Below, piece by piece: positions 1 to 21,900 of a DNA stretch of 26,886 bases. Under the pieces are notes generated by a model. It saw nothing but the letters and a program-made list of their open reading frames with translations. It searched no databases and had not been told where the DNA came from. The translations under genes were made by a program, and so were the position numbers. The first letter of the stretch is position 1. Every line of letters begins with the position of its first letter. This DNA comes from a virus. Lineage: Duplodnaviria > Heunggongvirae > Uroviricota > Caudoviricetes. The DNA is taken from IMG/VR virus record IMGVR_UViG_3300037790_000024; one strand, given 5' to 3'.

Positions 1-156
1 CCTAGTGGTTCTGACTGTTCCCCTCATGCAGCTCCTATAGAAACAGGATCTACAACTGTCTTTGTTAATGGCAAAGGTTGTGGAAGAATAGGAGATTTGA
101 TAACGGGGTGTACTGCTGTTTCTGAAGGTTCCCCTAATGTATTCGCGGGTGGCTAA
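1..156 (+). CDS. PAAR-domain spike-tip protein, 3' end (5' truncated by window)
   Basis: Frame 1 reads PSGSDCSPHAAPIETGSTTVFVNGKGCGRIGDLITGCTAVSEGSPNVFAGG*. This has the PAAR/T4 gp5.4-type features CxPH, GSxTVFVNG, GRIGD and GSPNVFAG. Stop overlaps the next ATG (TAATG). Not in the ORF track. Confidence 0.88.
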   Translation, partial: PSGSDCSPHAAPIETGSTTVFVNGKGCGRIGDLITGCTAVSEGSPNVFAGG

Positions 157-518
157 TGAATGATTTAAAATTAACAAACGATCATGATCTCTTAATAGAG
201 GGGGGAGATCTTGTTCTTATCAACAGTGAAGCAGAAGTAGCTGTTCAAAGTTTAAAGATAAACCTCTTAATGTTTAGAGGAGAGTGGTTCTTAGATAGTA
301 GTTTAGGAGTTCCTTACTTCCAAGAAATCCTTGGTAAAGTAACAAACAAAACTCTTGTTGATAATATTATTAAAGGAATTTCTACTAATAGCTACAACAT
401 CTACAGAGTTACAAGTTTGAATTCTACTATCTCTGACGACAGGACTTATGAAGTGAATCTTCTAGAAGCCTTAACAGAGGATGGAGAGATCATCAGTGTA
501 ACAAACTTACAGATATAG
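156..518 (+). CDS. Baseplate wedge protein (gp25/gpW-like)
   Basis: 120 aa with GEWFLDxxLGVPYFQEILGK motif, located between PAAR and baseplate J. Confidence 0.75.
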   Translation: MNDLKLTNDHDLLIEGGDLVLINSEAEVAVQSLKINLLMFRGEWFLDSSLGVPYFQEILGKVTNKTLVDNIIKGISTNSYNIYRVTSLNSTISDDRTYEVNLLEALTEDGEIISVTNLQI

Positions 519-527
519 GGAGGGCAA

Positions 528-1970
528 ATGCCTTTTACAAATAAAGGGTATGAAGTAAGACGCTTCAGAGACATCCTAGAAGAGATTAGAAGTGGCTTAG
601 AAGCTGGTCTAGGCACTCCCATCTCTTCAGACCCAGATAATGTCTTAGGAATAACTAACTCTATCTTCACTAACGAAGTGGCTAGAGTTGAAAACAACAT
701 ACAAGCACTAGTTCAGAATATATCCATCTTCACAGCAGAAGGTAGGTTTTTAGATGAGCTGGTCAGATACTTAGGTATTACGAGAAGAGGTGCTCAGCCA
801 GCAAACGGTAGTTTGAAAGTTTGGAGGAACGGGCAAGGTACTATTCCCACCTCTGTTAGATTCTCAAACAGTTTTGGTAACGAGTTTATCATTACTGGAG
901 GACTTACTCACAGTCTAGACTCTTGCGCAGAAGTATCTCTTGGGGTAGGAACAGTTGCTGAAAATGATGTGTTCACACTTCAGGTTAATACTATAGAGTT
1001 TACTTATACAGCAGGAGCTTCTGACACTGCCACAGACGTAGTAGACTACTTTGTTACTCAAATTTTTAACCAATTGGGGTTGACAACAGAGAACAACAGT
1101 GATATACTAAAGATCGTAGGGGAGAATGAAGATTTAAACAGCCTATCTATTGTTATAGAAGAAGGTTTCACTATCTCCGAGATTGCTGTGTTTGGATTCT
1201 GTGAATCAGTTCAAACTGGTGAGTTGGTAGTTCCAGAGAACACAATAACAACAATTGTAACTAATAACCCAGCTTTACTTCGTTGCAACAATCCATTAGC
1301 TTTTGAAAATGGTACAGACGAAGAAACAGATGAGGAACTTAGAGCTAGACACCAAAGAAGTATTCAAGTTGGGGGTAATGCAACAGTACCTTCTATTGTA
1401 GCTAGACTTCTCCAGTTAGCTAACGTAACCCAAGCTTACATTATTGAGAACAGAACTCTCACTACAGATGGAGAGGGAAGACCTCCTAAAAGTTATGAAA
1501 CTTTTGTTGTAGGAGGAGACCCCACTGTAATAGGTCAAGCAATCTGGGATTCTAAACCAGCAGGTGTTGAAACCTATGGAGACATCTCTACTATTATCAC
1601 AGATAACGTTGGGGTGCAACACTCTGTTAATTGGAGCAGACCAGAGAATGTATACATCTTCCTGAGAATTACCTATAAGCTTTATGATGAAGAAGTTTTC
1701 CCTATAGAGGGTGAAGATGTAATTGCTCAAGCTGTTGTAGATTATGGGGAGGAGCTACCTATCGGTAAAGACGTAGTGCCTACAAGATTTATCGGAAGCA
1801 TTTACAATGCTGTAGACGGTGTAGACACTGTTTTAGTTGAAGTAGGTTTCTCTACAGATATTGGAGACACTTCTCCTCCTTTAGGATATGGAACAGACAC
1901 TATCCCTATTGCCCAATCACAGGTAGCTCAGTTTACTCTTTCAAGGGTTACTCTAGTTCAAGACATATAG
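528..1970 (+). CDS. Baseplate J-like wedge protein
   Basis: 480 aa with AEGRFLDELVRYLGITR, GTDEETDEELRARH and GGNATVPSI motifs. GGAGG-like RBS upstream. Confidence 0.9.
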   Translation: MPFTNKGYEVRRFRDILEEIRSGLEAGLGTPISSDPDNVLGITNSIFTNEVARVENNIQALVQNISIFTAEGRFLDELVRYLGITRRGAQPANGSLKVWRNGQGTIPTSVRFSNSFGNEFIITGGLTHSLDSCAEVSLGVGTVAENDVFTLQVNTIEFTYTAGASDTATDVVDYFVTQIFNQLGLTTENNSDILKIVGENEDLNSLSIVIEEGFTISEIAVFGFCESVQTGELVVPENTITTIVTNNPALLRCNNPLAFENGTDEETDEELRARHQRSIQVGGNATVPSIVARLLQLANVTQAYIIENRTLTTDGEGRPPKSYETFVVGGDPTVIGQAIWDSKPAGVETYGDISTIITDNVGVQHSVNWSRPENVYIFLRITYKLYDEEVFPIEGEDVIAQAVVDYGEELPIGKDVVPTRFIGSIYNAVDGVDTVLVEVGFSTDIGDTSPPLGYGTDTIPIAQSQVAQFTLSRVTLVQDI

Positions 1971-1980
1971 AGGAAATTAG

Positions 1981-2793
1981 ATGATCCCTGAGAATATAAG
2001 TTTAAGGGATGAGGCAGAAAGCCTTGTCCCTATCCAATTTTTTGAAAAAACAACATTTAGGTTGTTGTTAGACCAGTATATTTCCCAGTTGCAAACCAGC
2101 GGGGATCAGTTTTTCGACATATTAAACTCTTTAAATATAGATGATGCCACAGGATACCTCCTAGATTGTGTTGGGAGCTATGTCGCTGTTCTTAGAAGAG
2201 GGGACACAGACGAAGATTTTAGAGAGAGAATCAGAAGAAGGGTGTTATCAGCCACTTCGGAAGGTACTCCTAATGATCTGCTCTCTTTGCTCAAACAAGC
2301 AACTAAGGCCACTGAAGTTAGAATATGGGAACACTTTCCAGTTTCTTCTATTCTATCCACTGATGGACACTTGATCCCTAACACTATAGTAAGTTCCATG
2401 CAAGCAGCTTCTCCAGCTACTAGCGGAGATGTTGCTATTTATTTGGACTACTACAACTCTGGTTTCATTCCAGTGGAGTTGGGAAGTCAGGTATTAAAAT
2501 TAGCAGATTCTAATCTATCTCCTTTTGCTACTGATGCAGACGAGTTTATTACAGTAGAAGATAGAATCTACAACGCAGGAGAAACAGACACTTCTGGGTT
2601 ACTGTCTGAATTTACTGGAGGACTAGGAAGCGGATCAGAGGCTTTCACAAGAGATGAGTTAGGAGTTCTTGTTGAGCTAATGTCTGAACAGAGTGGAATA
2701 TCTAACTTCAACTATGACTATGTTGAGCTGGCTGATACAGTAAATGATTGGTATTTATTAATGAATTTTGAAGTGCCGCAGGAGTTTAGTTAA
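1981..2793 (+). CDS. Baseplate wedge protein (gpI-like, partner of J)
   Basis: 270 aa with IDDATGYLLDCVGSYV..R.GDTDEDFRERIR..SEGTPNDL motif, directly after baseplate J. Confidence 0.75.
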   Translation: MIPENISLRDEAESLVPIQFFEKTTFRLLLDQYISQLQTSGDQFFDILNSLNIDDATGYLLDCVGSYVAVLRRGDTDEDFRERIRRRVLSATSEGTPNDLLSLLKQATKATEVRIWEHFPVSSILSTDGHLIPNTIVSSMQAASPATSGDVAIYLDYYNSGFIPVELGSQVLKLADSNLSPFATDADEFITVEDRIYNAGETDTSGLLSEFTGGLGSGSEAFTRDELGVLVELMSEQSGISNFNYDYVELADTVNDWYLLMNFEVPQEFS

Positions 2794-4061
2794 TGGCAGA
2801 AGACTTACAAACAATATTTGCTGATTCAGTAGCTAAAGCTGAAGCAGCAAGTGATATTGCCTATCTATGGGCAAACGGGGATGAAACAACCGTCATCCAA
2901 ACAGATTCTGGAGAACTACCTTCTCTGGCTAAATTTCAATTTGATAATGTAGGTGCTGGATCTTTTTCTGAGTTTGAAGTAGACCTTAGCTCTGGTAATG
3001 CAGTCATTACCTCTCAAGACTGGGTGGAGAATAGCTTTTTCAAAGCTTCAGGACATTCTGTAGAGAGAACTGTTACTTTACCCCCAAACCCAAAACTAGC
3101 TTATTTTCAAAATGCTGGTTCAGCTCCTGTTACTTTAATATTAGGAACAACTGAAGTATTAGTAGCTCCTAACCTAACTTTTGTTGTGTATACGGACGGT
3201 ACTAGTAACGGACTCCTGAATGTAACTTCGCACACAAAAATAGACACTATAACTAATACAAACCCTACAGCTTCTGATGATGAGTCTGAGGGCTATGTGT
3301 ATGGCTCCACTTGGTATAACACCTCTTCTGGTTTGGTTTACTTTCTAGTAGACAACACAGAAGGTGCTGCAATATGGGTGGACATCACTGGAGAGAGTGC
3401 TTCTACTATCTTAACTAAGATTAAGACAGTTGATGGAGCAGGATCTGGTTTAGACGCTGATCTCCTAGATGGTATTGATTCTTCAGAGTTTTTACAAAAA
3501 TCTCAGAATGAAACCATTACCGGACTTCTAACTATCGGGAACAACTCTGGGGATGACTCTGTATTAGACTTCACAGATGTTGCTAATTCCACTTTTAGAT
3601 CAATCTTATGGGCTAATGCTGACGGAGAGTGGCAAGTAGAGGCAGCAGATGGACTTCTATACACCTTATGGCACTCAGGAAATGATGGTGCTGGCTCAGG
3701 TTTAGATGCAGATACAGTGGACGGACTCCAAGGCAGTGAGATAGTCAATCAGGATAGTGATACAGGCGCTGCAAGTCTACCAACAGGGGATATTAGCCAA
3801 AGACCTAATACTCCCGTAGAAGGTATGTTTAGGTATAACAACGAAACTACTTCTTTTGAAGGCTATAGCAATGGAGACTGGGCTGGTGTTGGGGGTGCAT
3901 CTGGTGGAGCTGATAATCCTTTTGTGTACGAGAATGATGCCACTGTGACAGCAGACTATGAGATCACCTCTGGTAAGAATGCTATGTCAGCGGGGCCAAT
4001 TACTATCGCTGATGGAGCTACAGTTACAATTCCAGATGGAAGTGTTTGGACAATTGTATAA
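2793..4061 (+). CDS. Tail fibre protein
   Basis: 422 aa, Gly/Thr/Asp-rich. Two DGAGSGLDADxxDG repeats, GMFRYNNETTSFEGY motif, and C-terminal YENDATVTADYEITSGKNAMSAGPITIADGATVTIPDGSVWTIV, which I recognise from marine phage fibres. Follows the baseplate genes. Confidence 0.85.
   Translation: MAEDLQTIFADSVAKAEAASDIAYLWANGDETTVIQTDSGELPSLAKFQFDNVGAGSFSEFEVDLSSGNAVITSQDWVENSFFKASGHSVERTVTLPPNPKLAYFQNAGSAPVTLILGTTEVLVAPNLTFVVYTDGTSNGLLNVTSHTKIDTITNTNPTASDDESEGYVYGSTWYNTSSGLVYFLVDNTEGAAIWVDITGESASTILTKIKTVDGAGSGLDADLLDGIDSSEFLQKSQNETITGLLTIGNNSGDDSVLDFTDVANSTFRSILWANADGEWQVEAADGLLYTLWHSGNDGAGSGLDADTVDGLQGSEIVNQDSDTGAASLPTGDISQRPNTPVEGMFRYNNETTSFEGYSNGDWAGVGGASGGADNPFVYENDATVTADYEITSGKNAMSAGPITIADGATVTIPDGSVWTIV
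3432..3725 (+). repeat. Two 14-codon DGAGSGLDADxxDG repeats in the tail fibre (3432-3473 and 3684-3725)
   Basis: DGAGSGLDADLLDG and DGAGSGLDADTVDG, with synonymous divergence at the DNA level. Confidence 0.85.
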
Positions 4062-4088
4062 AAATTTTTAATTTTAAAGGAGGCTATA

Positions 4089-4328
4089 ATGGCTCAAGTA
4101 ATTATTTTTCAAAATGATAATGGTGGTGTTTCGGTAGTAAGACCTGTTCCAGCAATTCTTAAAACTCGCACTATTCAGCAAGTAGCTGCTAAAGATGTAC
4201 CAGCAGGTAAGTCTTATAAAATCATTGATGAAGCAGACTTGCCTAGTCGTGACTTTCGTGATGCTTGGACAGTGGATGAAGCTGACCTGACAGACGGTGT
4301 AGGCAATACATCAAACAAGTGGGAGTAA
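4089..4328 (+). CDS. Small tail-fibre-associated protein (assembly/chaperone-like)
   Basis: 79 aa with AAGGAGG RBS. The AAKDVPAGKSYKIIDEADLPSRDFRDAW motif resembles small genes that follow fibres in aquatic phages. Confidence 0.6.
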   Translation: MAQVIIFQNDNGGVSVVRPVPAILKTRTIQQVAAKDVPAGKSYKIIDEADLPSRDFRDAWTVDEADLTDGVGNTSNKWE

Positions 4329-4331
4329 GTT

Positions 4332-4682
4332 ATGACCACTAGGTTACGCGGTTCAGATAACTTTGACACCGAAGTAGGTCAGAAGGGCGCGGCTAAGGCG
4401 TGGGTCAACTTTAACGGTACGGGTACGGTTGCTATACGGGATAGCTACAATGTGTCGTCAATCACTGACAACGGTACTGGCAAATACACGGTTAATTTTG
4501 AAACGGCTATGCCGGATGCTAATTATAGTTTTACAGCTACAGCGGGGCTTAATGGAGGGGCAAATACACTTGCCGCACAAACAGAATCTCCTACAGTTAA
4601 CGGTGTTACGTTTAACGTAAGAACAACGAGTAATACTGTTTTTGATGCTGATTATTGTAATGCAACCATCCACGGCAACTAA
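4332..4682 (+). CDS. Stand-alone fibre-tip-like beta domain, paralogue A (AWVNF family)
   Basis: 116 aa with AKAWVNFNGTGTVAIRDSYNVSSITDNGTGKYTVNFETAMPDANY. Clear paralogy with 5009 and 5378. Confidence 0.65.
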   Translation: MTTRLRGSDNFDTEVGQKGAAKAWVNFNGTGTVAIRDSYNVSSITDNGTGKYTVNFETAMPDANYSFTATAGLNGGANTLAAQTESPTVNGVTFNVRTTSNTVFDADYCNATIHGN

Positions 4683-4696
4683 AAGGAAACAAAACA

Positions 4697-5005
4697 ATGG
4701 CACTAATCAACTTAGACCAAACGAAAGTAACAAAACAATTAGAAGAAAAATTAACTAGACAAGTTCAAAAGCGTCTTGATAATTTCGCTCAATCAAAAGG
4801 CTATGACGATGCTTTTACCTGCATTACTTATGAAGGGGATGGTAATCCTACCTTTGCAGCAGAAGCAGCCACCATGAAGCAATTGCGTAGTGATACATGG
4901 ACACAGTGTAATCAAATCCTTGCTGATGTAAAACAAGGAAATAGAGAAGCTCCTTTAGATATTTCAGAGATCGAATCAGAACTTCCAGTGCTGTCTTGGG
5001 GGTAA
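4697..5005 (+). CDS. Tail fibre assembly/chaperone-like protein
   Basis: 102 aa with RLDNFAQSKGYDD..C.TY...FAAEA...R..TW..C..IL.DV..G.R...ELP.L.W pattern, typical of genes directly downstream of fibres. AAGGA RBS. Confidence 0.6.
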   Translation: MALINLDQTKVTKQLEEKLTRQVQKRLDNFAQSKGYDDAFTCITYEGDGNPTFAAEAATMKQLRSDTWTQCNQILADVKQGNREAPLDISEIESELPVLSWG

Positions 5006-5008
5006 TCC

Positions 5009-5368
5009 ATGAGCGAAGTAGTAGCAAACAAATGGAGCAACCCAGACGGCACAGAAAACTATAAGTGTCGAGCGTGGGTGAATTTTGACGCAAGTGGCAC
5101 CCCATTTATCCGTGGTAACGGGAATATTTCATCTATCACAGACGAAGGTACAGGAAGGTTTGTTGTGAATTTTGATACTGCCCTTCCCGACGCCAATTAC
5201 TCAGTGAGCATCATTGCTCAGGGTGGCGGTAATGGTGTCACGACGATGATTAATACTCAATCAAACGACCCTTCACCACTCACGGTAAACGGCTTTCCTC
5301 TAAGGCTGGTCACCACATCCGGTACACTACTTGACTCATCAACAGTCTGTGCGAACGTTTTCCGTTAA
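5009..5368 (+). CDS. Stand-alone fibre-tip-like beta domain, paralogue B
   Basis: 119 aa with CRAWVNFDASG..NISSITDEGTGRFVVNFDTALPDANY. Confidence 0.65.
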   Translation: MSEVVANKWSNPDGTENYKCRAWVNFDASGTPFIRGNGNISSITDEGTGRFVVNFDTALPDANYSVSIIAQGGGNGVTTMINTQSNDPSPLTVNGFPLRLVTTSGTLLDSSTVCANVFR

Positions 5369-5377
5369 GGAGCCACT

Positions 5378-5740
5378 ATGAGTAAAGTAAAAACAAATGA
5401 ATTAGCTAATGTAGCGGACACAGAGAGTGTTCCAATTGGTGATGTGATAAATGGCAGTGCTAGAGCATGGGTCAACTTTGATGGGACAGGTACTGTAGCA
5501 ATCCGTGATAGTTATAATGTGTCGTCTATTACAGATAACGGCACAGGGAACTATATAGTCAACTTTGATACGCCTATGCCCGATGCTAATTATGCTGTGA
5601 GCGCTTCTGGTGATTTTACCGGAGTAACAGCGACTGTAGGAAACTCAAAAACTACATCCGAAGTTAATATCAGGTACTACACATCTAACGGGTCAGCCAC
5701 AGACAGTCCGCAAATGTCGGCAGCTATACACGGCAACTAA
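5378..5740 (+). CDS. Stand-alone fibre-tip-like beta domain, paralogue C
   Basis: 120 aa with ARAWVNFDGTGTVAIRDSYNVSSITDNGTGNYIVNFDTPMPDANY. Ends in IHGN like paralogue A. AAGGAG RBS. Confidence 0.65.
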   Translation: MSKVKTNELANVADTESVPIGDVINGSARAWVNFDGTGTVAIRDSYNVSSITDNGTGNYIVNFDTPMPDANYAVSASGDFTGVTATVGNSKTTSEVNIRYYTSNGSATDSPQMSAAIHGN

Positions 5741-5752
5741 AGGAAAACAATT

Positions 5753-5776
5753 ATGGCACAAGTAATTAGGAAATAA
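5753..5776 (+). pseudogene. 7-codon relic MAQVIRK*, probable remnant of a copy of the 4089 gene
   Basis: ATGGCACAAGTAATTA matches the first 16 nt of the 4089 ORF (ATGGCTCAAGTAATTA) at 15/16. It is preceded by its own AAGGA RBS and ends 1 nt before the 5778 ATG. Confidence 0.55.
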
Positions 5777-5777
5777 T

Positions 5778-6416
5778 ATGAAACTAGAACTTTTAAAAGC
5801 GATACCAAGCTGGGTGTTCTGGGCTTTTGCAAGGCTATCTGCTGTAATCATAGGTTTTTTTGTTGTAGCTGTTACCCTTCCTTTTAGAACTGAAGAACCA
5901 GTTCCTGAGGGGGGCGAAAAGCCTTATCCAGAACGTAAAATTGTTCATCTTCCTAAGTGGGCATGGCTTTGGGATAATGATGCTGAAGGTATGATGTCAT
6001 GGATGGATGAATGGCCTGAAATGTGTTGGAACGGTAAACCCGACTCATTCCTATCTATGTGGCAATGGGCAGCATGGCGTAATCCCGCAAACAACATGCG
6101 ATTTGTTCGTGGTATTGCAGTGTACATCCCTGAAGCCCACAGCTTCCAGTTCTGGGGGGATGCTAACGTAGACGATAAAGACTGGGAAAATGGTAAGGGA
6201 TGGAACTTTCTGAAGTGCAAAGGGAAGTACCTGACTTACTATGGTTTCAACTGGGTTGGTGATAAATACTATGCTCAGATTGGACACAAGATTGAACCAA
6301 AGCATTTTGAAGAAGGTTATGTTGATAACGCACCAGAACGCAAACTTTGGAAAGGGATGACATTTAGACCTTTTCAGAAGCGTAGAGACAACAGCAAATA
6401 TGAAGTGAACCAGTAG
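5778..6416 (+). CDS. Trp-rich phage protein with N-terminal membrane segment, function unknown
   Basis: 212 aa with 16 Trp, hydrophobic WVFWAFARLSAVIIGFFVVAVTLPF, and WLWDND and WAAWRNPANN motifs. Confidence 0.6.
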   Translation: MKLELLKAIPSWVFWAFARLSAVIIGFFVVAVTLPFRTEEPVPEGGEKPYPERKIVHLPKWAWLWDNDAEGMMSWMDEWPEMCWNGKPDSFLSMWQWAAWRNPANNMRFVRGIAVYIPEAHSFQFWGDANVDDKDWENGKGWNFLKCKGKYLTYYGFNWVGDKYYAQIGHKIEPKHFEEGYVDNAPERKLWKGMTFRPFQKRRDNSKYEVNQ

Positions 6417-6425
6417 AGGAATACA

Positions 6426-6752
6426 ATGGAAGATCTGTTATTAAAAGCACTAATGGCTCTCCTAACCTTCACTTGTGTTCTCCTAGGTATGATGTACCGT
6501 AAGATGGATAGCAGGGTTGGTAAGCTAGAAGACAACCAGACAGTTATTATAACAGACCTCCCTACCAACTATGTCTCTAAGGCAGAGCATAGAAGAGCTA
6601 CGGATATTATTAGTGAGAACCAAACAGTATCTTATTCTAGGCTAGAGTCTGCCCAACTAAGAATGGAAGAAAATTTCAGGAGAGAGTTGGAAAAACAGGA
6701 TATTAAACTAGATAGGATCTATGAAGAGCTTAAGGGGAAGGTGGATAAATGA
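6426..6752 (+). CDS. Single-TM coiled-coil protein (holin/antiholin-like candidate)
   Basis: 108 aa with an N-terminal hydrophobic helix, LPTNYVSK motif and charged coiled-coil tail. GAGG RBS. ATGA overlap with the next gene. Confidence 0.55.
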   Translation: MEDLLLKALMALLTFTCVLLGMMYRKMDSRVGKLEDNQTVIITDLPTNYVSKAEHRRATDIISENQTVSYSRLESAQLRMEENFRRELEKQDIKLDRIYEELKGKVDK

Positions 6753-7156
6753 ACGTTCTAATAGTAGAAAACGACACCACCGCTGTAGAGAGGTTAAAAG
6801 AGTTTGTCGAGAAGTTTGGGTATATTCCTACTGTCTGCTATGACGGTAGGAATGTATTAAATAACTTTAAAGATTTTGATATTATTATCTTGGACTGGAC
6901 TTTACCAGATATTTCAGGTTTAGAGCTTATCAGAGAAATTAGAAAAACTCACCCAGACTACCCTCCTTACATCATTATGGTTACTTCTTGTGCTTCCTAT
7001 GAAGAACACCAAACTGCTCTAGAAACAGGGGCTAATAGCTTTCTATCAAAACCTATCATAGATGCAGTTAAACTGCAAGCTCATCTAGACTTTGCATGTA
7101 AATCTGTATTAAAATTACGAGAAGAACAAACATCCTCAAGGAGGGATAATGGCTAA
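6749..7156 (+). CDS. Stand-alone response-regulator receiver (REC, CheY-like) domain protein
   Basis: 135 aa with LIVEND (beta1 acidic pocket, Asn at the usual second Asp), IILD49WTLPDISG (phospho-acceptor), IIMVT79 and GANSFLSK101P. No output domain. Confidence 0.9.
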   Translation: MNVLIVENDTTAVERLKEFVEKFGYIPTVCYDGRNVLNNFKDFDIIILDWTLPDISGLELIREIRKTHPDYPPYIIMVTSCASYEEHQTALETGANSFLSKPIIDAVKLQAHLDFACKSVLKLREEQTSSRRDNG

Positions 7157-7619
7157 ACCAACAGTTCTGCCAAGGTGGGCAGAAGTAGACGAACAAGACC
7201 CTATAACAGGGGCAGAGAATAAAGTAGAACCGACAGAAGAGTTTAAACTGTCTGGTTTAAAAAGAGGGGAGTTTCTTGCCAGAGTTTTTGTAAACTATCA
7301 ATTTAATCTGATTGCAGAATGGCTTGAGTATTTAAGTGCTAAAAGCACTGAGTATGATCTAACTGGTGGCACTGAGATTGATCCAGACAACGGGAAATAC
7401 CAAACGCTGTCTCTTTCAGAAAATACCACCCTGACGGAGACTATGGTTGCTGGGGATGAAGTGTACTTGCTAGTAACAGCAAATGGGTTCACTCTTACCT
7501 ACCCAGCCTCTTTTGACTGGGGGGATGCAGGAGAACCTACCTTAACCACCTCAAACCTGATCAGAGCAATAAAGATTGGCTCTACTGTATATCCAACTTT
7601 AGAATGGTCTAACACCTAG
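7149..7619 (+). CDS. Short tail fibre / baseplate-anchor protein
   Basis: 156 aa. N-terminal MAKPTVLPRWAE..EP...K.SG...NYQFN.I.EWL.YL resembles the myovirus fibre anchor domain. C-terminal LTYPASFDWGDAGEPTLT motif. Confidence 0.6.
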   Translation: MAKPTVLPRWAEVDEQDPITGAENKVEPTEEFKLSGLKRGEFLARVFVNYQFNLIAEWLEYLSAKSTEYDLTGGTEIDPDNGKYQTLSLSENTTLTETMVAGDEVYLLVTANGFTLTYPASFDWGDAGEPTLTTSNLIRAIKIGSTVYPTLEWSNT

Positions 7620-7629
7620 GAGATAATAT

Positions 7630-8430
7630 ATGGCAGAAGAAATTCTAATTCAGGTTAGTGACTTAGGGCAAATAACTGAAGTTGCTGCTGTAGACTTCAT
7701 ACATATAAAACAATTCACTGATAATGGTGACTATAAAATAACTGTAGAAGATTTTGCAGCTAGCTTACAAACAGAACTGGATCTAGGAGCCTTGGCTTTC
7801 CTAGACACTGTTAATAATACTCTTTGGTTGGGACAAGACCTTTCTATCTCTAATGGAGGTACAGGGGCTAGTGATGCTGGAAATGCAAGAACAAATCTTG
7901 AAGTGTATTCCAAAACAGAAGCAGATAATAAGTTTGCCTTAAAAGAAGATGCTGTCCAAATAGGTACAATCTTTATGTGGAGCGGTAGTATTGCATCCAT
8001 CCCAGCAAAATACCAGTTGTGTGATGGTACTAACGGAACTCCAGACCTAAGAGATAAATTTGTTATTGGTGCGAGACAAGATGATATTGGTGTAGCTAAA
8101 TCTAATATTACAGGGGCTTTAACTCAATCCGGTGGTAATAAGAATGCTGTTGTTGTAGCTCACACCCACTCAGCTAGTGCTAACGAGGCTGGAGAGCACG
8201 TTCACACCTTGTATGGTAATAATAGAGGCAGTGTATCTGGACAAACCTTAGCTCCGGGACTTTACAGGGATGATCCAGAGGGGCCATCAGAATTAGTCCG
8301 TAACGGAGGAACAATTAGACCAGCAGGTACACACAATCATACAGTGTCTGTGAATAGTTCTGGGGAGAGTGGAACTAACAAAAACCTTCCTCCGTATTAT
8401 GCTCTAGCATTTATTATTAAAACCAGCTAA
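7630..8430 (+). CDS. Tail fibre protein with phage tail-collar domain
   Basis: 266 aa with IGTIFMWSG..IP..YQLCDGTNGTPDLRDKFVIGA collar motif, HTH(S/T) His repeats and C-terminal NLPPYYALAFIIK. Confidence 0.88.
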   Translation: MAEEILIQVSDLGQITEVAAVDFIHIKQFTDNGDYKITVEDFAASLQTELDLGALAFLDTVNNTLWLGQDLSISNGGTGASDAGNARTNLEVYSKTEADNKFALKEDAVQIGTIFMWSGSIASIPAKYQLCDGTNGTPDLRDKFVIGARQDDIGVAKSNITGALTQSGGNKNAVVVAHTHSASANEAGEHVHTLYGNNRGSVSGQTLAPGLYRDDPEGPSELVRNGGTIRPAGTHNHTVSVNSSGESGTNKNLPPYYALAFIIKTS

Positions 8431-8432
8431 CT

Positions 8433-8744
8433 ATGGAACTTGCAATAACAACCTTCTTAGCAAAACATTCTTGGGGAGTTGTGTTTTTAGTAGCTATGAT
8501 TATTGTGTTTGTTTTTACACACATCTACGCTAAGTTGAATGACACATTTTCTAAGAAAGAAACTTTAGGGATTATTGATCTTAAGATAATGCCTTTGGTG
8601 GAGAGTATTGACAGGCACTCTAACCTTATTGAGAAACAAACTCTTGTGTTAGAGAAACTTAATGATTCCCTTCAGCTCCTGCACAAGGATATGTATTCTG
8701 TGAAGGAGAAGGTGGATAAATTAGAGAGACCTAAAGATGATTAA
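8433..8744 (+). CDS. Single-TM coiled-coil protein (holin-like candidate)
   Basis: 103 aa with TM segment WGVVFLVAMIIVFVFTHIY and a coiled-coil tail, directly upstream of the spanins. Confidence 0.5.
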   Translation: MELAITTFLAKHSWGVVFLVAMIIVFVFTHIYAKLNDTFSKKETLGIIDLKIMPLVESIDRHSNLIEKQTLVLEKLNDSLQLLHKDMYSVKEKVDKLERPKDD

Positions 8745-9156
8745 AATGCTACTTAACTTCCTCCCTCCTTGGGTTAAGTGGCTCCCAGTAGTAATCGGGG
8801 TAGCCCTTGGTGGCTACCTCTACTGGGATAACCAAAACTTAAAAGAGGAAATAGTAGCTACCTCTGTTGAACTAGCAGATGAGCAGAGAAGAAATTCTAT
8901 GCTTACCTTTCAACTAGAAGAACAGACTCAGAGAGCCGCTAGGCAGTCTCTAAGGCTAGAATCCTTACTAGGTAAGGCAAGGGTAGCTCAAGAGGAAAAT
9001 AATCGCTTAAACGCGATTCTAGACAGTTACAAAGGCAAAGAGGAGATAGCTCTTGAAAATCCTAAAGATGTTGAGCTTAGGGCTAATGATGCTTATAACA
9101 GCCTCTTGCTCAAGTTTGAATGCGAAACAGGAAATGATAGCTCCTGTTCAGAATAA
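8737..9156 (+). CDS. Inner-membrane spanin (Rz-like)
   Basis: 139 aa with N-terminal TM, long coiled coil and two C-terminal Cys (CETGNDSSC). Overlapped by a lipoprotein ORF. Confidence 0.8.
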   Translation: MIKMLLNFLPPWVKWLPVVIGVALGGYLYWDNQNLKEEIVATSVELADEQRRNSMLTFQLEEQTQRAARQSLRLESLLGKARVAQEENNRLNAILDSYKGKEEIALENPKDVELRANDAYNSLLLKFECETGNDSSCSE

Positions 9157-9409
9157 TATTACCATTCCAGCTAGGCCAGCTAGTGTAGTGGCTCCACAAG
9201 CCCCTGTTCATGTTATTACAGAACAAACACAGGCACAGAAGCTAGGAGAAAATCCTGTCTATATATGTAGGGTTTGGGATGATCAGATAGAATATTTCCA
9301 GTTTCAGAGAAACATTCTTAATTTTATAACAGAACAGAATCTACTTTTAGATTACTATGAAAACACTGTGAAAGATTTAAATGGAGGGGAAGATGAAATG
9401 GGTGAATAA
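9053..9409 (+). CDS. Outer-membrane spanin lipoprotein (Rz1-like)
   Basis: 118 aa with signal peptide MKILKMLSLGLMMLITAS-C (relaxed lipobox), Pro-rich linker and one further Cys. Starts 104 nt inside the i-spanin in another frame. Confidence 0.8.
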   Translation: MKILKMLSLGLMMLITASCSSLNAKQEMIAPVQNNITIPARPASVVAPQAPVHVITEQTQAQKLGENPVYICRVWDDQIEYFQFQRNILNFITEQNLLLDYYENTVKDLNGGEDEMGE

Positions 9410-9626
9410 CCTTGCTTACAGCATTAGAAGATTAAAGCTTATAAGTATTCTTTCTCTTATCTTCACTTTCTCTATGACGTATGAGTTTTTGTCTTGGGTG
9501 ATGACCTCTGATCCTACTGAGTTAGGAGAGGCACTAGCTGTGACAGGTATTATGACTACCTTGGTGGCACTAGTTAAATTCATATTTGAATTCTATATGA
9601 AAGAACCTAGAGATGACAATAAGTAA
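9381..9626 (+). CDS. Small two-TM protein, holin candidate
   Basis: 81 aa with two hydrophobic helices and charged C-terminus KEPRDDNK. GGGGAAG RBS. Last gene before the terminator. Confidence 0.55.
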   Translation: MEGKMKWVNNLAYSIRRLKLISILSLIFTFSMTYEFLSWVMTSDPTELGEALAVTGIMTTLVALVKFIFEFYMKEPRDDNK

Positions 9627-18137: not shown

Positions 18138-19772
18138 TTATAGATTTTCTTCAAAACGTGTACGAATTGTATCAAAATCTTCATCCAATGTCAACACACC
18201 ATCTTTAAACACTGTAAGAAGTTCCCCTTCCTTCTCTTCTTCAAAAGATACTTGGTCTTCTAAAGTGTAGAAGCCTTTTACATCTTTGTCAACTTTAAGT
18301 AAGCCTTTAGCAGACTTCTTAGTTCCATTGTCTGTAATAGGATCTTTAAAGATTTCCCTTGGTTCCCCATCTACAATACCAAAGGTGGCTTTCATAGCAA
18401 ACCCTAGGGTGTCTCGTGTGTTGTATTGGTAGGTGTAACTACCTACACCAAACACAATGTTGTCTGCTGAAAATCCTTTCTCAGCCAGTCTTTGTAGAAT
18501 TTCTACAGCACGTTGTCGTGTAATAGAATCGCCATAAATCAGTCCTACTCGCTCATTGAGGGTACGGTAGCCCTTATCTGTTTCAGCGCCTCCAAAGATG
18601 TTCCACAAGGTTTCTACAGCACCTTTAGCCTCTGACTCAGAGATTTCTTCAAAATCCCAGTCAGTATCCCAACCAGTATCATAAGCTTTAAATTTATAGT
18701 ATCTCCCTTCCCAGTAAACTGCCTCTGCATCAGAAACATTAATCATGTCAAAGTAGTTTTCAGGGTTTGCCTCAACCAACTTGTATCCAGTAATCACTTT
18801 AACTGGATCTCCAGAGTCAGGTCGAAACACCACTTTAGCCATACCCAAGTCATTAGGAACACGATTCAGAATCTCTTCTTTCAGTTCTACTGTGTATTCT
18901 GAAATAACTTTCCAGAAGTCCCAAGTGTCAGACACAATAGATACAATACCGGATGGGTAGAGATCTGTGATCAATCGACGGAATGTTTCGATCTCACTTT
19001 CTTTAGTACCCATACTCATAACAGAATGTTCTGTAGCAGGTACACTAGCCCCTACCAGCATATTCTCTGCGTTAGCTTTGTAGTAGTCTTCTACATAGTC
19101 AATCGCAGACACTGTATCTGTACCAGCAAAAGCCAACAGATGCCCCGCTCCGCTCATAGCAGCATCATAGGGGGTAGACATACCTCTGGAGGAGAAATCG
19201 TGGCAGGAGAACGGCATGAGGAGCTTATTAGCACCTGTCAGATTATAGTAGTATTCCATAATCTTACGAAATTCTCTTGCAATCGTAGCTGTTGTGTAAG
19301 ACTTCCACAGGCCATTACTGAGGACAGTTTCCAAGTAATTTGTCAACCAATAAAATTCTTCCTTAGTGTTCTGAATAGTGAACACAGGCACTTTAATAGG
19401 AGACACACTACCCTCTGGCAGGGCTTTAATCTCCACAGGGAGATAGCCCAGATCATGCAGAGCTTCAATGTGCTCTACAGGAATACTGTCAGCTCCTAGA
19501 GAAGTATCCATCCTACGTTTATACTTACGGACAGCTTTTGTTTTGTCTACATTAAAGAAGGTATCATTAAATAATTCAATCAAATACCATTTAACAAAAC
19601 CTGTCAAACCAAAGTTTACTACGTTACCATCCCAAAATGCTGTAGCTCCTTGGCTGTAAATACGATCTGATCGGGGAGTGAAATTACCATAGACAAACGT
19701 TGTGTTGTCTGGGTATTGTCTCCGGTGATCAGCTTTATAAAAGTCAATCTGACTTAGTGCATCAATCTTCAT
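18138..19772 (-). CDS. nadV: Nicotinamide phosphoribosyltransferase-family enzyme (NAMPT/NadV-like; probably NARP1 Namat)
   Basis: DFYKADH, HDFSSRG, GTDT, VPATEHSVM, VSDTWD, FRPDSGDP, IYGDSIT, FGVGSYTYQ..TRDT and KKSAKG. The symbol is family-level only. Confidence 0.93.
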   Translation of the reverse strand: MKIDALSQIDFYKADHRRQYPDNTTFVYGNFTPRSDRIYSQGATAFWDGNVVNFGLTGFVKWYLIELFNDTFFNVDKTKAVRKYKRRMDTSLGADSIPVEHIEALHDLGYLPVEIKALPEGSVSPIKVPVFTIQNTKEEFYWLTNYLETVLSNGLWKSYTTATIAREFRKIMEYYYNLTGANKLLMPFSCHDFSSRGMSTPYDAAMSGAGHLLAFAGTDTVSAIDYVEDYYKANAENMLVGASVPATEHSVMSMGTKESEIETFRRLITDLYPSGIVSIVSDTWDFWKVISEYTVELKEEILNRVPNDLGMAKVVFRPDSGDPVKVITGYKLVEANPENYFDMINVSDAEAVYWEGRYYKFKAYDTGWDTDWDFEEISESEAKGAVETLWNIFGGAETDKGYRTLNERVGLIYGDSITRQRAVEILQRLAEKGFSADNIVFGVGSYTYQYNTRDTLGFAMKATFGIVDGEPREIFKDPITDNGTKKSAKGLLKVDKDVKGFYTLEDQVSFEEEKEGELLTVFKDGVLTLDEDFDTIRTRFEENL

Positions 19773-19781
19773 CTAATCCTC

Positions 19782-20111
19782 CTATTTTCCGTGAAATTCT
19801 AACAGTTTACTTCCGTCAAAGGAGAAAAGCAAGTTTTCTGCTTCCTTCCCCCTAACTTTATTTTGTAACTCTCTTGTATCAGGATCTCTTGAGCTTTTAC
19901 ACATTTTATTCATATACATAGCATAGCCTGCACAATGTTGCTCTTTTACAGGCTTCTCAAGAAAGTCTTCTGTTGTCATGTGACAGGGCATTCTAATATC
20001 TAGTTGCACTAACTCGTGAAAGTCTTTAGCAGTGCTATGACCCCCAATCCATCCTGCCATTTGAGCTAAGAAAGGACATTCTCTACAAGGCTTTGTTTTA
20101 TTAAACTCCAT
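19782..20111 (-). CDS. Cys/His-rich small protein, putative metal-binding
   Basis: 109 aa with PCRECPF, PCH and HCAG. GGAGGT RBS. Confidence 0.65.
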   Translation of the reverse strand: MEFNKTKPCRECPFLAQMAGWIGGHSTAKDFHELVQLDIRMPCHMTTEDFLEKPVKEQHCAGYAMYMNKMCKSSRDPDTRELQNKVRGKEAENLLFSFDGSKLLEFHGK

Positions 20112-20119
20112 ACCTCCCC

Positions 20120-20902
20120 CTATACAATCCTAATTTTCTTCCCTAGAACTTCCTCAATCTGCTCTAGAGTCATTTCTTCTGGGGAGTTTTTATCATAAAC
20201 TACCTCCCAGCTATTCTCAAGTGAGTCCACAACTCCCTCTGGCTTAAACCAATTAAAACAAGTGGAGACAGCCAGATTGTGAGGAGGAGAATATACCTTT
20301 TCAATTTTTGTTAGGGTTCTGTCTGTAAGAGGCTCCCAAGTGCCGCCAGCAATGATATCTCCCATCTTAGTGCCTTTAAGCACCATAGCGAACGTAGTTT
20401 CTTCGACACTACTTTTATATTCCACCACCATCCCTGTCTTCAAGTTTTCTAAGGACAATATAAATCCTAACTCTTCCTCTGGGATTTCCTTCTCTAATAG
20501 ATTGCCATGCATATCACACTCCTTCCAAGAGTCTCCTAAATGAGCTTTCCATCTAAAGTCTACTGTTTCAATTTTATTATCTATGGGGCATATCCAAACT
20601 ACCTCGTTGTCACTCTTACGATGGAAATAGATAAGATCTTCATCTCCTTCACAATAGAAGAAATATCCTTCCCCATACAAAAATTCTTGCCAGCTAATCT
20701 CTTCTGCCTCTTTAGTATCAAAAAAATCTTTGTCTTGTTCTTCTCCATAAGTGATATACGTATCAACAAAAAGATAAGGTTGAGAGAGGTTCCTTAGCTG
20801 TCTTTTTTCTCCCCCGCCCCAGTAGATTCCTTCGCTAAAAAGCTTATTTTGAACCTTTCTAGAGACTTCCTTATTTGGCACTCTTATTTTAAACTTTGTC
20901 AT
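20120..20902 (-). CDS. Mosaic hypothetical phage protein
   Basis: 260 aa. N-terminal FKIRVPNKEVSRKVQ.KLF..G..W and C-terminal EMTLEQIEEVLGKKIRIV motifs are common in phage hypotheticals. Start abuts the stop of the prs-like gene. Confidence 0.65.
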   Translation of the reverse strand: MTKFKIRVPNKEVSRKVQNKLFSEGIYWGGGEKRQLRNLSQPYLFVDTYITYGEEQDKDFFDTKEAEEISWQEFLYGEGYFFYCEGDEDLIYFHRKSDNEVVWICPIDNKIETVDFRWKAHLGDSWKECDMHGNLLEKEIPEEELGFILSLENLKTGMVVEYKSSVEETTFAMVLKGTKMGDIIAGGTWEPLTDRTLTKIEKVYSPPHNLAVSTCFNWFKPEGVVDSLENSWEVVYDKNSPEEMTLEQIEEVLGKKIRIV

Positions 20903-21823: not shown

Positions 21824-21834
21824 TCATTCCTCCC

Positions 21835-21871
21835 AATAAAAAAGCCGTTACCCAAATTAATGAGTAACAGC
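21835..21871 (-). terminator. Intrinsic terminator
   Basis: Minus strand: GCTGTTACTC-ATTAATTT-GGGTAACGGC (10 bp with two G-U pairs) followed by TTTTTT. Confidence 0.82.
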
Positions 21872-21897
21872 TTACTAGGTTTAAATCAAATTGTCAA
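21869..21897 (-). promoter_or_regulatory. Sigma70-type promoter for the prs-like/NAMPT-like operon
   Basis: TTGACA (21897-21892), 17 nt spacer, TAAGCT (21874-21869), in an intergenic gap. Confidence 0.78.
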
Positions 21898-21900
21898 CAC

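What the first reader, a model, noticed from the sequence alone, without database searches (positions are those of the whole stretch)
6426..7156. Orphan response-regulator receiver coupled to a membrane coiled-coil gene inside the tail/lysis operon
Seen: a 135-aa REC-only protein that keeps Asp49, Thr79 and Lys101-Pro but has Asn in the Mg2+-binding acidic pocket (E-N-D). It is translationally coupled to a single-TM coiled-coil gene (ATGA overlap) and overlaps the next fibre gene by 8 nt. No kinase or output domain lies in the window. Known: single-domain receivers act as phosphate sinks, adaptors or allosteric switches, and are not standard parts of lytic-phage late operons. From memory, LDW.LP..SG and LETGA resemble PhoB/OmpR-type receivers, and YIIMVT resembles PleD-type ones. 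Inference: a late-expressed module that reads or drains a host phosphorelay (e.g. phosphate status) to tune lysis timing through the TM partner, or that silences a host two-component defence or stress response. This is my best candidate for an undescribed system.
Basis: partly seen in the sequence, partly recalled or inferred. Interest (0 to 1): 0.8.

Follow-up and report, generated by a model that had tools for sequence, protein, structure and literature searches.

The report
Phage receiver protein with membrane partner
A marine phage carries a bacterial-type "receiver" switch protein co-translated with a small membrane-anchored helical protein, and the same gene pair sits in or beside the cell-bursting (lysis) genes of at least eight phage lineages. 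This suggests an untested switch that controls when the host cell is lysed.

Summary
Window 6426-6752 encodes a 108-aa protein with one N-terminal membrane helix and a helical tail. Window 6749-7156 encodes a 135-aa receiver-only protein (Pfam PF00072, E 1.9e-21; AF2 pLDDT 95). The two genes overlap by ATGA.

The receiver keeps D49, T79 and K101-P102. It has Asn at the metal-binding position DD2, so it is formally a pseudo-receiver.

The pair is not an orphan. A TARA phage of a different genome type carries both genes (47% and 42% identity, same overlap) between its o-spanin and endolysin. There, 29 synonymous and 1 non-synonymous codon changes show purifying selection.

Cultured Alteromonas phages of four genome types (V22, A5, PB15/XX1924, R8W/H4-4, R9Y1-3) carry an analogous coupled pair: a small membrane helical protein plus a receiver-only protein, next to holin, spanin or endolysin genes. 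Five complete genomes have one receiver each and no kinase or Hpt.

Published papers only list these receivers as "CheY-like/PhoB AMGs". My best reading (about 0.4) is a lysis-accessory module in which the receiver docks on a releasin- or antiholin-like membrane partner. The function is untested.

This scan has noted the same pairing before in other phages.

The parts
6426..6752 (+). 108-aa membrane partner. It has an N-terminal transmembrane helix with predicted N-out/C-in topology, a basic junction (YRKMDSR), and a cytoplasmic helical domain with a conserved DLPxNY loop and a KxEHRRAxDIxxENQ block.
   Evidence: ORF. Hydropathy and flanking charges. AF2 gives helix 2-43, loop 44-51, helix 52-107 at pLDDT 82. 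It is 42% identical to the TARA phage protein L008:9675-10004, E 3e-33. Weak match to phrog_462 (E 0.003; the TARA copy scores 3.4e-6). No Pfam family.
6749..6752 (+). ATGA start/stop overlap between the partner gene and the receiver gene, with an AAGGTGGA Shine-Dalgarno-like site inside the upstream gene.
   Evidence: Sequence. The same 4-nt overlap occurs in the TARA phage, PB15, XX1924, R8W and R9Y1. V22 and A5 have gaps of 2 and 1 nt.
6749..7156 (+). 135-aa receiver-only protein. DD1 is E7, DD2 is N8 (non-acidic), the phospho-acceptor is D49, with T79, F98 at K-3, and K101-P102. Helix alpha5 is long (residues 106-134).
   Evidence: Pfam PF00072 E 1.9e-21. AF2 pLDDT 95. Foldseek. Alignment A3. 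It is 47% identical to P0062 of the TARA phage.
5778..6416 (+). Upstream neighbour: a 212-aa membrane protein (DUF7338 on record; phrog_2143). Its role is unknown and it is not shown to belong to the module.
   Evidence: Distant relatives sit after tail-fibre genes in other viral contigs.
7149..8430 (+). Two tail-fibre genes (7149-7619 and 7630-8430) that separate the pair from the lysis genes in this phage.
   Evidence: phrog_4465 E 3e-9; phrog_5795 E 1e-23 and phrog_1800 E 2e-19.
8433..8744 (+). 103-aa protein with an N-terminal transmembrane helix, directly before the spanins. It is a holin- or releasin-like candidate.
   Evidence: Sub-threshold DUF2730 hit, E 0.043, and phrog_1625, E 0.0014. 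Hydropathy. No detectable similarity to the 108-aa partner.
8737..9156 (+). i-spanin (Rz-like).
   Evidence: phrog_739 E 3.8e-12.
9134..9409 (+). o-spanin candidate, overlapping the end of the i-spanin gene.
   Evidence: phrog_812 E 0.004. PF26831 Phage_T4_Spanin, weak, on record.
9393..9626 (+). 77-aa protein with two hydrophobic segments at the end of the + strand operon. It is a holin candidate by position only.
   Evidence: ORF. No family match. No similarity to A5 gp13.

Best explanation
The two genes form a conserved, co-translated, late-expressed module. A small bitopic inner-membrane protein (short periplasmic N-terminus, about 85-aa cytoplasmic helical domain) pairs with a soluble single-domain receiver.

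Shown: the pair is real, both proteins are conserved together, both are under purifying selection, and analogous pairs recur at the tail-fibre/lysis junction or inside lysis cassettes of eight phage lineages that encode no kinase.

Inferred: the receiver docks on the cytoplasmic domain of the membrane protein, possibly through its long alpha5 helix. The membrane protein acts as a lysis accessory factor, comparable to an antiholin or to the Mu gp25 releasin, which has the same size and topology. The receiver's conformational state sets when the holin or endolysin step fires.

In relatives with a full active site (TARA phage, V22, A5, PB15, XX1924, R8W, R9Y1), that state would be set by phosphorylation of the conserved Asp, from host kinases or acetyl phosphate. 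This would couple lysis timing to host physiology.

The window copy has Asn at the metal-binding DD2 position. It probably binds Mg2+ poorly and may work in a phosphorylation-independent or slowly cycling way.
For: - Same pair in an unrelated phage. P0062 is 47% identical to the receiver. Its upstream 109-aa gene is 42% identical to the partner. The ATGA overlap is the same.
- In that phage the order is holin (phrog_1356, E 4e-14), i-spanin, lipoprotein o-spanin, partner, receiver, M15 endolysin (phrog_894, E 1.7e-25).
- Purifying selection between two variants that are 92% identical in DNA. The partner has 20 synonymous and 1 non-synonymous codon changes and the receiver has 9 and 0. Two nearby genes have 20/9 and 24/9.
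- Analogous coupled pairs beside lysis genes:
  - V22: gp28 amidase, gp29, gp30, gp31 Rz-like.
  - A5: gp10, gp11, gp12 Rz-like, gp13, gp14 endolysin.
  - PB15 and XX1924: tail-anchored helical protein, receiver, then in PB15 an M15 endolysin and a GTA_holin_3TM holin; in XX1924 a 132-aa gene that I did not scan and a close copy of the PB15 holin.
  - R8W: holin gp46, gp47, gp48.
  - R9Y1: 121-aa membrane protein, receiver, lysozyme, all with 4-nt overlaps.
- All six N-terminal-TM partners have 0-1 K/R before the helix and 2-5 after it, so the helical domain is predicted to be cytoplasmic. The PB15-type partner is tail-anchored, which gives the same result.
- Mu gp25 releasin is a 99-aa N-out/C-in lysis protein with a basic junction motif (PMC9239132).
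- Five complete Alteromonas phage genomes have exactly one receiver each, no HATPase_c above cut-off and no Hpt.
- All eight receivers keep D, S/T and K. Only the window copy lacks an acidic DD2.
Against: - No experiment or expression data bears on function.
- In this window two fibre genes lie between the pair and the spanins. The only endolysin candidate found (Hydrolase_2 with a signal peptide) lies about 37 kb away.
- The junction between tail-fibre and lysis genes is a common place for accessory genes, so position alone can mislead.
- The partner proteins of the different lineages show no significant sequence similarity to each other. The best comparison (window/TARA against R8W/R9Y1) gives hhalign E 0.0036 at probability 3.8%. 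Common function rests on architecture only.
- The cultured lineages all infect one host genus, and the shared fibre modules are known to move between them (PMC10579305). The lineages are therefore not fully independent.
- DD2 = Asn argues against efficient phosphorylation of this copy (PMC12632262).
Confidence: 0.4

Rival explanations
1. Host-signalling interference unrelated to lysis. The receiver acts as a decoy or phosphate sink for a host (Alteromonas-type) histidine kinase or phosphorelay, held at the membrane near its target by the partner. It would reprogramme host physiology (motility, c-di-GMP, stress or nutrient responses) late in infection. This is the 'auxiliary metabolic gene' reading used in the literature.
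For: - The phages encode no kinase or Hpt.
- All cultured carriers infect one genus, as expected if a host-specific kinase is the target.
- The nearest bacterial relatives of the window/TARA receiver are N-terminal receivers of REC-GGDEF and REC-kinase proteins.
- Published annotations call these genes CheY-like or PhoB AMGs (PMC7289586, PMC8228385, PMC10579305).
Against: - It does not explain why the pair lies between o-spanin and endolysin, or between holin and other lysis genes, with overlapping reading frames.
- Late expression leaves little time to reprogramme the host.
- The window copy has a weakened metal site, which makes it a poor sink.
Confidence: 0.25
2. Membrane-level superinfection exclusion or counter-defence. 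The pair forms a membrane complex that blocks entry of competing phages or neutralises a membrane-associated host defence. The receiver fold would serve only as a protein-binding scaffold.
For: - The partner is membrane-anchored, and the window copy is a pseudo-receiver.
- Accessory genes at fibre/lysis junctions are often exclusion or defence genes (general knowledge).
Against: - Seven of eight receivers keep a complete phosphorylation site.
- The window is a strictly late structural operon with no extra promoter signal above chance.
- No PADLOC or anti-defence evidence was sought or found.
Confidence: 0.1
3. The pair belongs to the host-recognition (tail-fibre) module. It would serve fibre assembly or maturation, or be carried along with fibre genes by recombination.
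For: - V22 gp29-32 and A5 gp10-13 were reported as part of a shared host-recognition module (PMC10579305).
- In the window the pair is flanked by fibre genes.
Against: - The TARA, PB15, R8W and R9Y1 pairs are flanked downstream by endolysin or holin genes rather than fibre genes.
- V22 gp31 and A5 gp12 are Rz-like spanins, so the 'module' of that paper includes lysis genes.
- A cytoplasmic receiver on the inner face of the membrane has no obvious role in fibre folding.
Confidence: 0.07

Closest known systems
CheY-like / 'PhoB' receiver-only genes of Alteromonas phages (V22 gp30, A5 gp11, R8W gp48, PB15 and XX1924 'response regulator')
   Same: - Receiver-only proteins of 125-153 aa.
- Preceded by a coupled small membrane-anchored helical protein.
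- Placed after tail-fibre genes and next to lysis genes.
- No phage kinase.
- The window phage is a distant relative of V22 (baseplate 33% identity; same NAD-salvage, RNR and ThyA genes).
   Different: - Only 23-29% identical to the window receiver.
- In a tree the six cultured-phage receivers form one clade, while window and TARA group with bacterial REC-GGDEF/REC-kinase receivers. This may mean a separate acquisition.
- Those copies have acidic DD2.
- In the literature they are listed only as signalling AMGs, with no partner or lysis link.
Single-domain response regulators acting by protein contact (CheY, Spo0F, DivK, CpdR) and pseudo-receivers as defined in PMC12632262
   Same: - (beta-alpha)5 receiver fold with no output domain.
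- D, T and K are present.
- DD2-to-Asn is reported as the commonest pseudo-receiver substitution.
   Different: - Encoded by a lytic-type phage in a late structural/lysis operon.
- Paired with a membrane protein.
- No cognate kinase, Hpt or che genes.
- A long alpha5 extension.
Phage Mu gp25 releasin (DUF2730), compared with the 108-aa partner
   Same: [quoted passage not shown]
- Only a few periplasmic residues.
- A basic motif at the membrane/cytoplasm junction.
- A helical cytoplasmic domain.
- Encoded among late lysis genes (PMC9239132).
   Different: - The partner has no DUF2730 match.
- No receiver is associated with Mu gp25.
- The partner's cytoplasmic domain is not predominantly anionic (net charge 0).
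- The endolysins next to the TARA, PB15 and R9Y1 pairs show no hydrophobic N-terminal (SAR) segment in the translations I read.
Antiholins and cytoplasmic lysis-inhibition factors (lambda S107, T4 RI/RIII, N4 gp62)
   Same: Small accessory proteins in lysis cassettes that set lysis timing. T4 RIII is a cytoplasmic protein acting on a holin's cytoplasmic domain (general knowledge). N4 gp62 is a membrane lysis regulator (PMC12642591).
   Different: There is no sequence or fold relation. None of them contains a two-component receiver domain.

Membership tests
Response regulator receiver domain (Pfam PF00072) | Profile match above the curated cut-off, and a (beta-alpha)5 fold | tested here: met
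   76.7 bits against a cut-off of 30.2. AF2 model has five strands and five helices at pLDDT 95. Foldseek probability is 1.00 to the CpxR, VicR and PhoB receivers.
Canonical (phosphorylatable) receiver, as against pseudo-receiver (definition of PMC12632262) | All five active-site residues present: DD1, DD2, D, T/S, K | tested here: not met
   E7 (DD1), D49, T79 and K101 are present. DD2 is N8, in a column that is Asp in at least 90% of 30 receivers. By the paper's definition this copy is a pseudo-receiver. The TARA homologue and the six Alteromonas phage receivers do meet the feature.
Canonical (phosphorylatable) receiver | Actual Mg2+ binding and Asp phosphorylation | not testable with these tools
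   Needs acetyl-phosphate or phosphoramidate assays and metal-binding measurements.
OmpR/PhoB-family response regulator | C-terminal winged-helix DNA-binding domain (Trans_reg_C) | tested here: not met
   The protein is 135 aa. Only PF00072 is found, and residues 106-134 are a single helix. OmpR/PhoB proteins are merely the best short-word hits, at 33-37% identity over the receiver part.
PleD/WspR-type REC-GGDEF regulators | GGDEF output domain | tested here: not met
   No GGDEF domain. The nearest receivers sharing the PPYIIM motif belong to REC-GGDEF and REC-PAS-kinase proteins. This speaks to origin, not membership.
Alteromonas phage CheY-like gene with membrane partner (V22 gp29-gp30 type) | Receiver-only gene immediately preceded by a coupled small membrane-anchored helical protein | tested here: met
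   Window 6426-6752 and 6749-7156 with ATGA overlap. The same layout occurs in eight lineages.
Alteromonas phage CheY-like gene with membrane partner (V22 gp29-gp30 type) | Directly adjacent to a holin, spanin or endolysin gene | tested here: not met
   In the window two fibre genes (7149-8430) lie between the receiver and the 103-aa TM protein and spanins. The TARA homologue is directly adjacent.
Alteromonas phage CheY-like gene with membrane partner (V22 gp29-gp30 type) | Sequence relatedness of receiver and partner to the V22/A5/PB15/R8W proteins | tested here: inconclusive
   Receiver identity is 23-29%, no better than to bacterial receivers. The tree places window/TARA outside the clade of cultured-phage receivers, but a single origin is not excluded. 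The partners show no significant similarity.
Mu gp25 releasin / DUF2730 (for the 108-aa partner) | DUF2730 profile match | tested here: not met
   No Pfam hit at E <= 0.1 for the 108-aa protein. Only the separate 103-aa protein at 8433-8744 has a sub-threshold hit (E 0.043).
Mu gp25 releasin / DUF2730 (for the 108-aa partner) | About 100 aa, N-terminal TMD, N-out/C-in topology, basic junction motif | tested here: met
   TM at residues 4-22, no K/R before it and four within 12 residues after it. Compared with the description in PMC9239132. The topology is predicted, not measured.

The most novel reading that the evidence does not exclude
A two-component receiver docked on a small releasin- or antiholin-like inner-membrane protein is a new class of phage lysis regulator. 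It would let the phage set the moment of lysis according to host kinase or acetyl-phosphate signalling, or in pseudo-receiver copies like this one, by a phosphorylation-independent switch. The tree suggests, but does not establish, that it was recruited to lysis cassettes more than once.
Probability: 0.33. Interest if true: 0.85.

Novelty: new variant of a known kind. Interest (0 to 1): 0.66.

Why it matters
Lysis timing is the main life-history decision of a lytic phage. Known controls are holin-intrinsic clocks, antiholins, T4/N4 lysis inhibition and the Mu releasin.

A receiver domain wired into lysis cassettes would be the first link between bacterial phospho-signalling and phage lysis. 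It would give a mechanism by which marine phages adjust burst timing to host energy or nutrient state.

The idea can be tested directly, because several carriers (V22, A5, R8W, R9Y1-3, PB15) are cultured with their Alteromonas hosts. It would also correct the current habit of annotating these genes as 'PhoB/CheY-like AMGs'.

Tried and rejected
- Complex prediction of the receiver (30-row alignment) with partner residues 25-108 gave no verdict: score 0.00, controls not run. This is no evidence either way.
- No whole genome is held for the window, and the Logan contig cannot be searched as a genome.
- The megablast of the region against phages found nothing.
- The word-based protein searches found only the proteins themselves plus the TARA partner.
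- The IMG/VR scans with either protein, with the alignments, or with a back-translated EHRRA...ENQ motif found nothing.
- The one GTDB motif hit is a chance antisense match inside an FtsK-like gene of a high-GC MAG.
- The metagenome scan added only the same TARA phage and ordinary regulators.
- tblastn of the partner against 50,697 phage records found nothing.
- The idea that the 103-aa TM protein at 8433-8744 is a paralogue of the partner is rejected.
- Homology between the partner families was not demonstrated.
- I considered the conserved His (H55, 'EH' motif) as a DHp/Hpt-like phosphotransfer site. It does not fit the H-box patterns I recall, and no Hpt or HisKA profile matched, so it remains only an idea.
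- Most 'phage' records matching the receiver (Listeria/Enterococcus/Staphylococcus 'phage' contigs, Acinetobacter phage MD-2021a, and others) look like host DNA. 'Pseudomonas phage Y1' was checked and is a host Wsp operon.
- The N4 paper's 'Receiver domain' is an unrelated use of the term.
- The GC content of the pair (0.36-0.40) is only slightly below its surroundings, so it is not evidence of recent transfer.
- The promoter and terminator scan was no better than shuffles.
Full report
**1. What is in the window**

The + strand from about 150 to 9626 is one tightly packed late operon. It runs from baseplate genes through fibre genes to lysis genes. Gene junctions range from 37-nt gaps to 23-nt overlaps. 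No promoter or terminator signal exceeds the shuffled controls.

Within this operon:
- 6426-6752 encodes a 108-aa protein.
- 6749-7156 encodes a 135-aa protein.
- The two overlap by ATGA, with an AAGGTGGA ribosome-binding-like site inside the upstream gene.
- The next gene (7149-7619) overlaps by 8 nt. Its N-terminus matches a tail-fibre family, phrog_4465.

The genes that follow are a tail-collar fibre (7630-8430), a 103-aa TM protein (8433-8744), an Rz-like i-spanin (8737-9156, phrog_739 E 3.8e-12), an o-spanin candidate (9134-9409) and a 77-aa protein with two hydrophobic segments.

**2. The receiver**

- It matches Pfam Response_reg at 76.7 bits (cut-off 30.2), E 1.9e-21, over profile positions 1-109 of 111.
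- AF2 with a 30-row alignment gives pLDDT 95 and a canonical five-strand, five-helix fold. The last helix runs from residue 106 to 134, longer than a receiver needs.
- The best Foldseek matches are the CpxR, VicR, DrrB and PhoB receiver domains.
- D49, T79 and K101-P102 align with the D, T and K positions.
- Position 8 is Asn, in a column that is Asp in at least 90% of the aligned receivers. E7 occupies DD1.
- PMC12632262 states that DD2 binds the metal directly. It defines a receiver lacking any of the five residues as a pseudo-receiver, and reports Asn as the common DD2 replacement. On that definition this copy is a pseudo-receiver that still has its acceptor Asp.

**3. The membrane partner**

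- There is one hydrophobic stretch, at residues 4-22. No K/R precedes it and four lie within the next 12 residues. The positive-inside rule therefore puts the 85-aa helical part in the cytoplasm.
- AF2 models helix 2-43, a loop at 44-51 and helix 52-107, at pLDDT 82. The pTM is low, so the helix packing is undefined.
- No Pfam family matches. There is a weak match to phrog_462.
- The Atlas look-alikes are small viral proteins, plus N-terminal-anchor helices such as ATP synthase b and RNase Y.

**4. The pair is conserved in another phage**

An exhaustive profile-free search listed multi-receiver bacterial proteins above it (their repeated domains add up in the score). Among the 150 best it found one small single-domain relative, P0062 (143 aa, 47% identity).

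P0062 lies on a 48-kb TARA contig whose replication and structural genes differ from this window's (SNF2, DUF2800, Enc34, DUF5906, and a giant LPD22/ART-PolyVal protein). Directly upstream, overlapping by ATGA, is a 109-aa gene 42% identical to the window partner, E 3e-33.

The gene order on that contig is:
1. tail fibre
2. holin (phrog_1356 / DUF7940)
3. i-spanin
4. lipoprotein o-spanin
5. partner
6. receiver
7. M15 endolysin

The frames overlap from the spanin to the endolysin.

A second variant of that phage is 92% identical in DNA. Between the two variants the partner differs at 20 synonymous and 1 non-synonymous codons, and the receiver at 9 and 0. Two nearby genes show 20/9 and 24/9. Both genes are therefore under strong purifying selection. 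P0062 has an all-acidic D-D-D, so Asn8 is specific to the window lineage.

**5. Cultured relatives**

The closest cultured phage by baseplate protein is Alteromonas myovirus V22 (33% identity). It shares the NAD-salvage, RNR, ThyA and stomatin-like gene set.

| Phage | Type | Gene order around the pair |
|---|---|---|
| V22 | myovirus | fibre and chaperone; gp28 papain-like amidase; gp29 (125 aa, N-terminal hydrophobic segment, KKK junction, helical); gp30 (149-aa receiver-only); gp31 Rz-like spanin; gp32 (two TM segments) |
| A5 | schitovirus | gp10; gp11; gp12 Rz-like; gp13; gp14 endolysin |
| PB15, XX1924 | not classified below Caudoviricetes in the records; 37-41 kb genomes | 101-aa helical protein with a C-terminal TM (phrog_937, annotated 'hemolysin', E 1.8e-16); receiver. 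In PB15 these are followed by an M15 endolysin and a GTA_holin_3TM holin. In XX1924 they are followed by an unscanned 132-aa gene and a close copy of that holin. |
| R8W, H4/4 | Autographiviridae | holin gp46; gp47 (98 aa, TM plus helical); gp48 receiver; gp49 |
| R9Y1-3 | named as siphoviruses (vB_AmaS) | fibre; 121-aa TM-helical protein; receiver; lysozyme, all with 4-nt overlaps |

Further points from these comparisons:
- The PB15 receiver most likely starts 21 nt upstream of its annotated start, which restores strand beta1 and an ATGA overlap.
- All N-terminal-TM partners have the N-out/C-in charge pattern.
- All eight receivers keep D, S/T and K. Only the window copy lacks an acidic DD2.
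- Five complete genomes hold exactly one receiver each, no HATPase_c above cut-off and no Hpt.
- About 55 kb of the window phage's own contig shows no kinase family on record.

**6. Relationships between the lineages**

The receivers fall into four groups: window/TARA, V22/A5, PB15/XX1924, and R8W/R9Y1. Identity between groups is 23-33%.

In a maximum-likelihood tree with 28 bacterial receivers, the six cultured-phage receivers form one clade (support 95/90). Window and TARA group with bacterial receivers that share the PPYIIM motif (support 88/87). Those bacterial receivers are N-terminal domains of REC-GGDEF and REC-PAS-kinase proteins.

The bacterial sample was chosen by similarity to the window protein, so this placement is suggestive only. 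A single origin is not excluded.

The partner proteins of different groups have no significant similarity. The best comparison gives hhalign E 0.0036 at probability 3.8%. What is shared is architecture, coupling and position.

**7. Literature**

- A5 gp10-13 were reported as homologous to V22 gp29-32, with functions unknown. The CheY-like gene was counted as part of a shared host-recognition module (PMC10579305).
- R8W g48 was called PhoB and linked to low phosphate (PMC8228385).
- Full-text searches found no paper that connects these genes to the membrane partner or to lysis.
- The nearest characterised analogue of the partner is the Mu gp25 releasin. It is a 99-aa N-out/C-in lysis protein with a basic junction motif and a cytoplasmic domain whose mode of action is unknown (PMC9239132). 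The partner has no DUF2730 match.

**8. Interpretation**

Shown:
- The two-gene unit is real, coupled and conserved.
- It is under purifying selection.
- Analogous units recur at or inside lysis cassettes.
- No phage kinase is present.

Inferred:
- The receiver binds the partner's cytoplasmic domain.
- The partner acts on the holin or endolysin step.
- In the canonical copies, the receiver's phosphorylation state sets the timing.

I give the lysis-accessory reading about 0.4. I give about 0.25 to interference with host signalling unrelated to lysis. Membrane-level exclusion or defence and fibre-module roles get smaller shares.

For this particular copy, Asn8 makes phosphorylation-dependent control less likely than for its relatives.

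**9. Earlier notes of this scan**

After I had formed this reading, a word search returned eight notes on other genomes. They describe receiver domains, often with a small membrane protein, in or beside phage lysis cassettes. They are unchecked AI notes. They agree with what I found independently on this phage, the TARA contig and the Alteromonas phages, and I do not count them as evidence.

**10. Limits**

- The complex prediction gave no verdict.
- The window phage's host is unknown. Alteromonas or a relative is likely by kinship only.
- The cultured carriers infect one genus and exchange fibre modules, so the eight lineages are not fully independent.

Noticed in passing
window 4332-5740: Three paralogous small fibre-like genes (116, 119 and 120 aa; phrog_11355, E 5e-24 to 3e-14) lie in tandem, interrupted by an unrelated 102-aa gene.
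   Followed up: no
L017:1001-1453 (same phage contig, about 37 kb from the pair): The only endolysin candidate seen for this phage is a 150-aa Hydrolase_2 (SleB-like) protein with a signal-peptide-like N-terminus. It lies next to a Band_7/stomatin-like gene, far from the spanin cluster.
   Followed up: partly
window 8433-8744: A 103-aa protein with an N-terminal TM helix sits directly before the i-spanin. It has a sub-threshold DUF2730 (Mu releasin family) hit, E 0.043. It might be this phage's holin or releasin.
   Followed up: partly
window 6580-6625; L008, L024, L025, L026: A Glu-His pair occurs in the cytoplasmic helical domain of the window, TARA, V22, A5 and PB15/XX1924 partners (window H55 in KAEHRRA), but not of R8W or R9Y1. 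I could not tell whether the His has a role, for example in phosphotransfer or phosphatase action.
   Followed up: partly
L026:3992-4390 (Alteromonas phage PB15): The annotated start of the PB15 'response regulator' (4013) cuts off strand beta1. An ATG at 3992 restores it and overlaps the upstream stop by ATGA, as in XX1924.
   Followed up: yes
L031 (OQ572403, 'Pseudomonas phage Y1'): The receiver hit in this unverified phage record lies in a Wsp-type chemosensory operon (CheA-like, CheB-like, REC-GGDEF) followed by prfB. This is host chromosomal DNA. Many other receiver hits in 'phage' records look like host contigs too.
   Followed up: partly
window 18138-22836 (- strand): NAPRTase, a phosphoribosyltransferase-family gene (Pribosyltran) and neighbouring genes form a NAD/nucleotide-salvage block beside the RNR and ThyA genes, as in Alteromonas phage V22.
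   Followed up: no
L008:1-6665: The TARA phage encodes a giant protein of more than 2,200 aa with LPD22 and ART-PolyVal domains upstream of its tail fibre.
   Followed up: no
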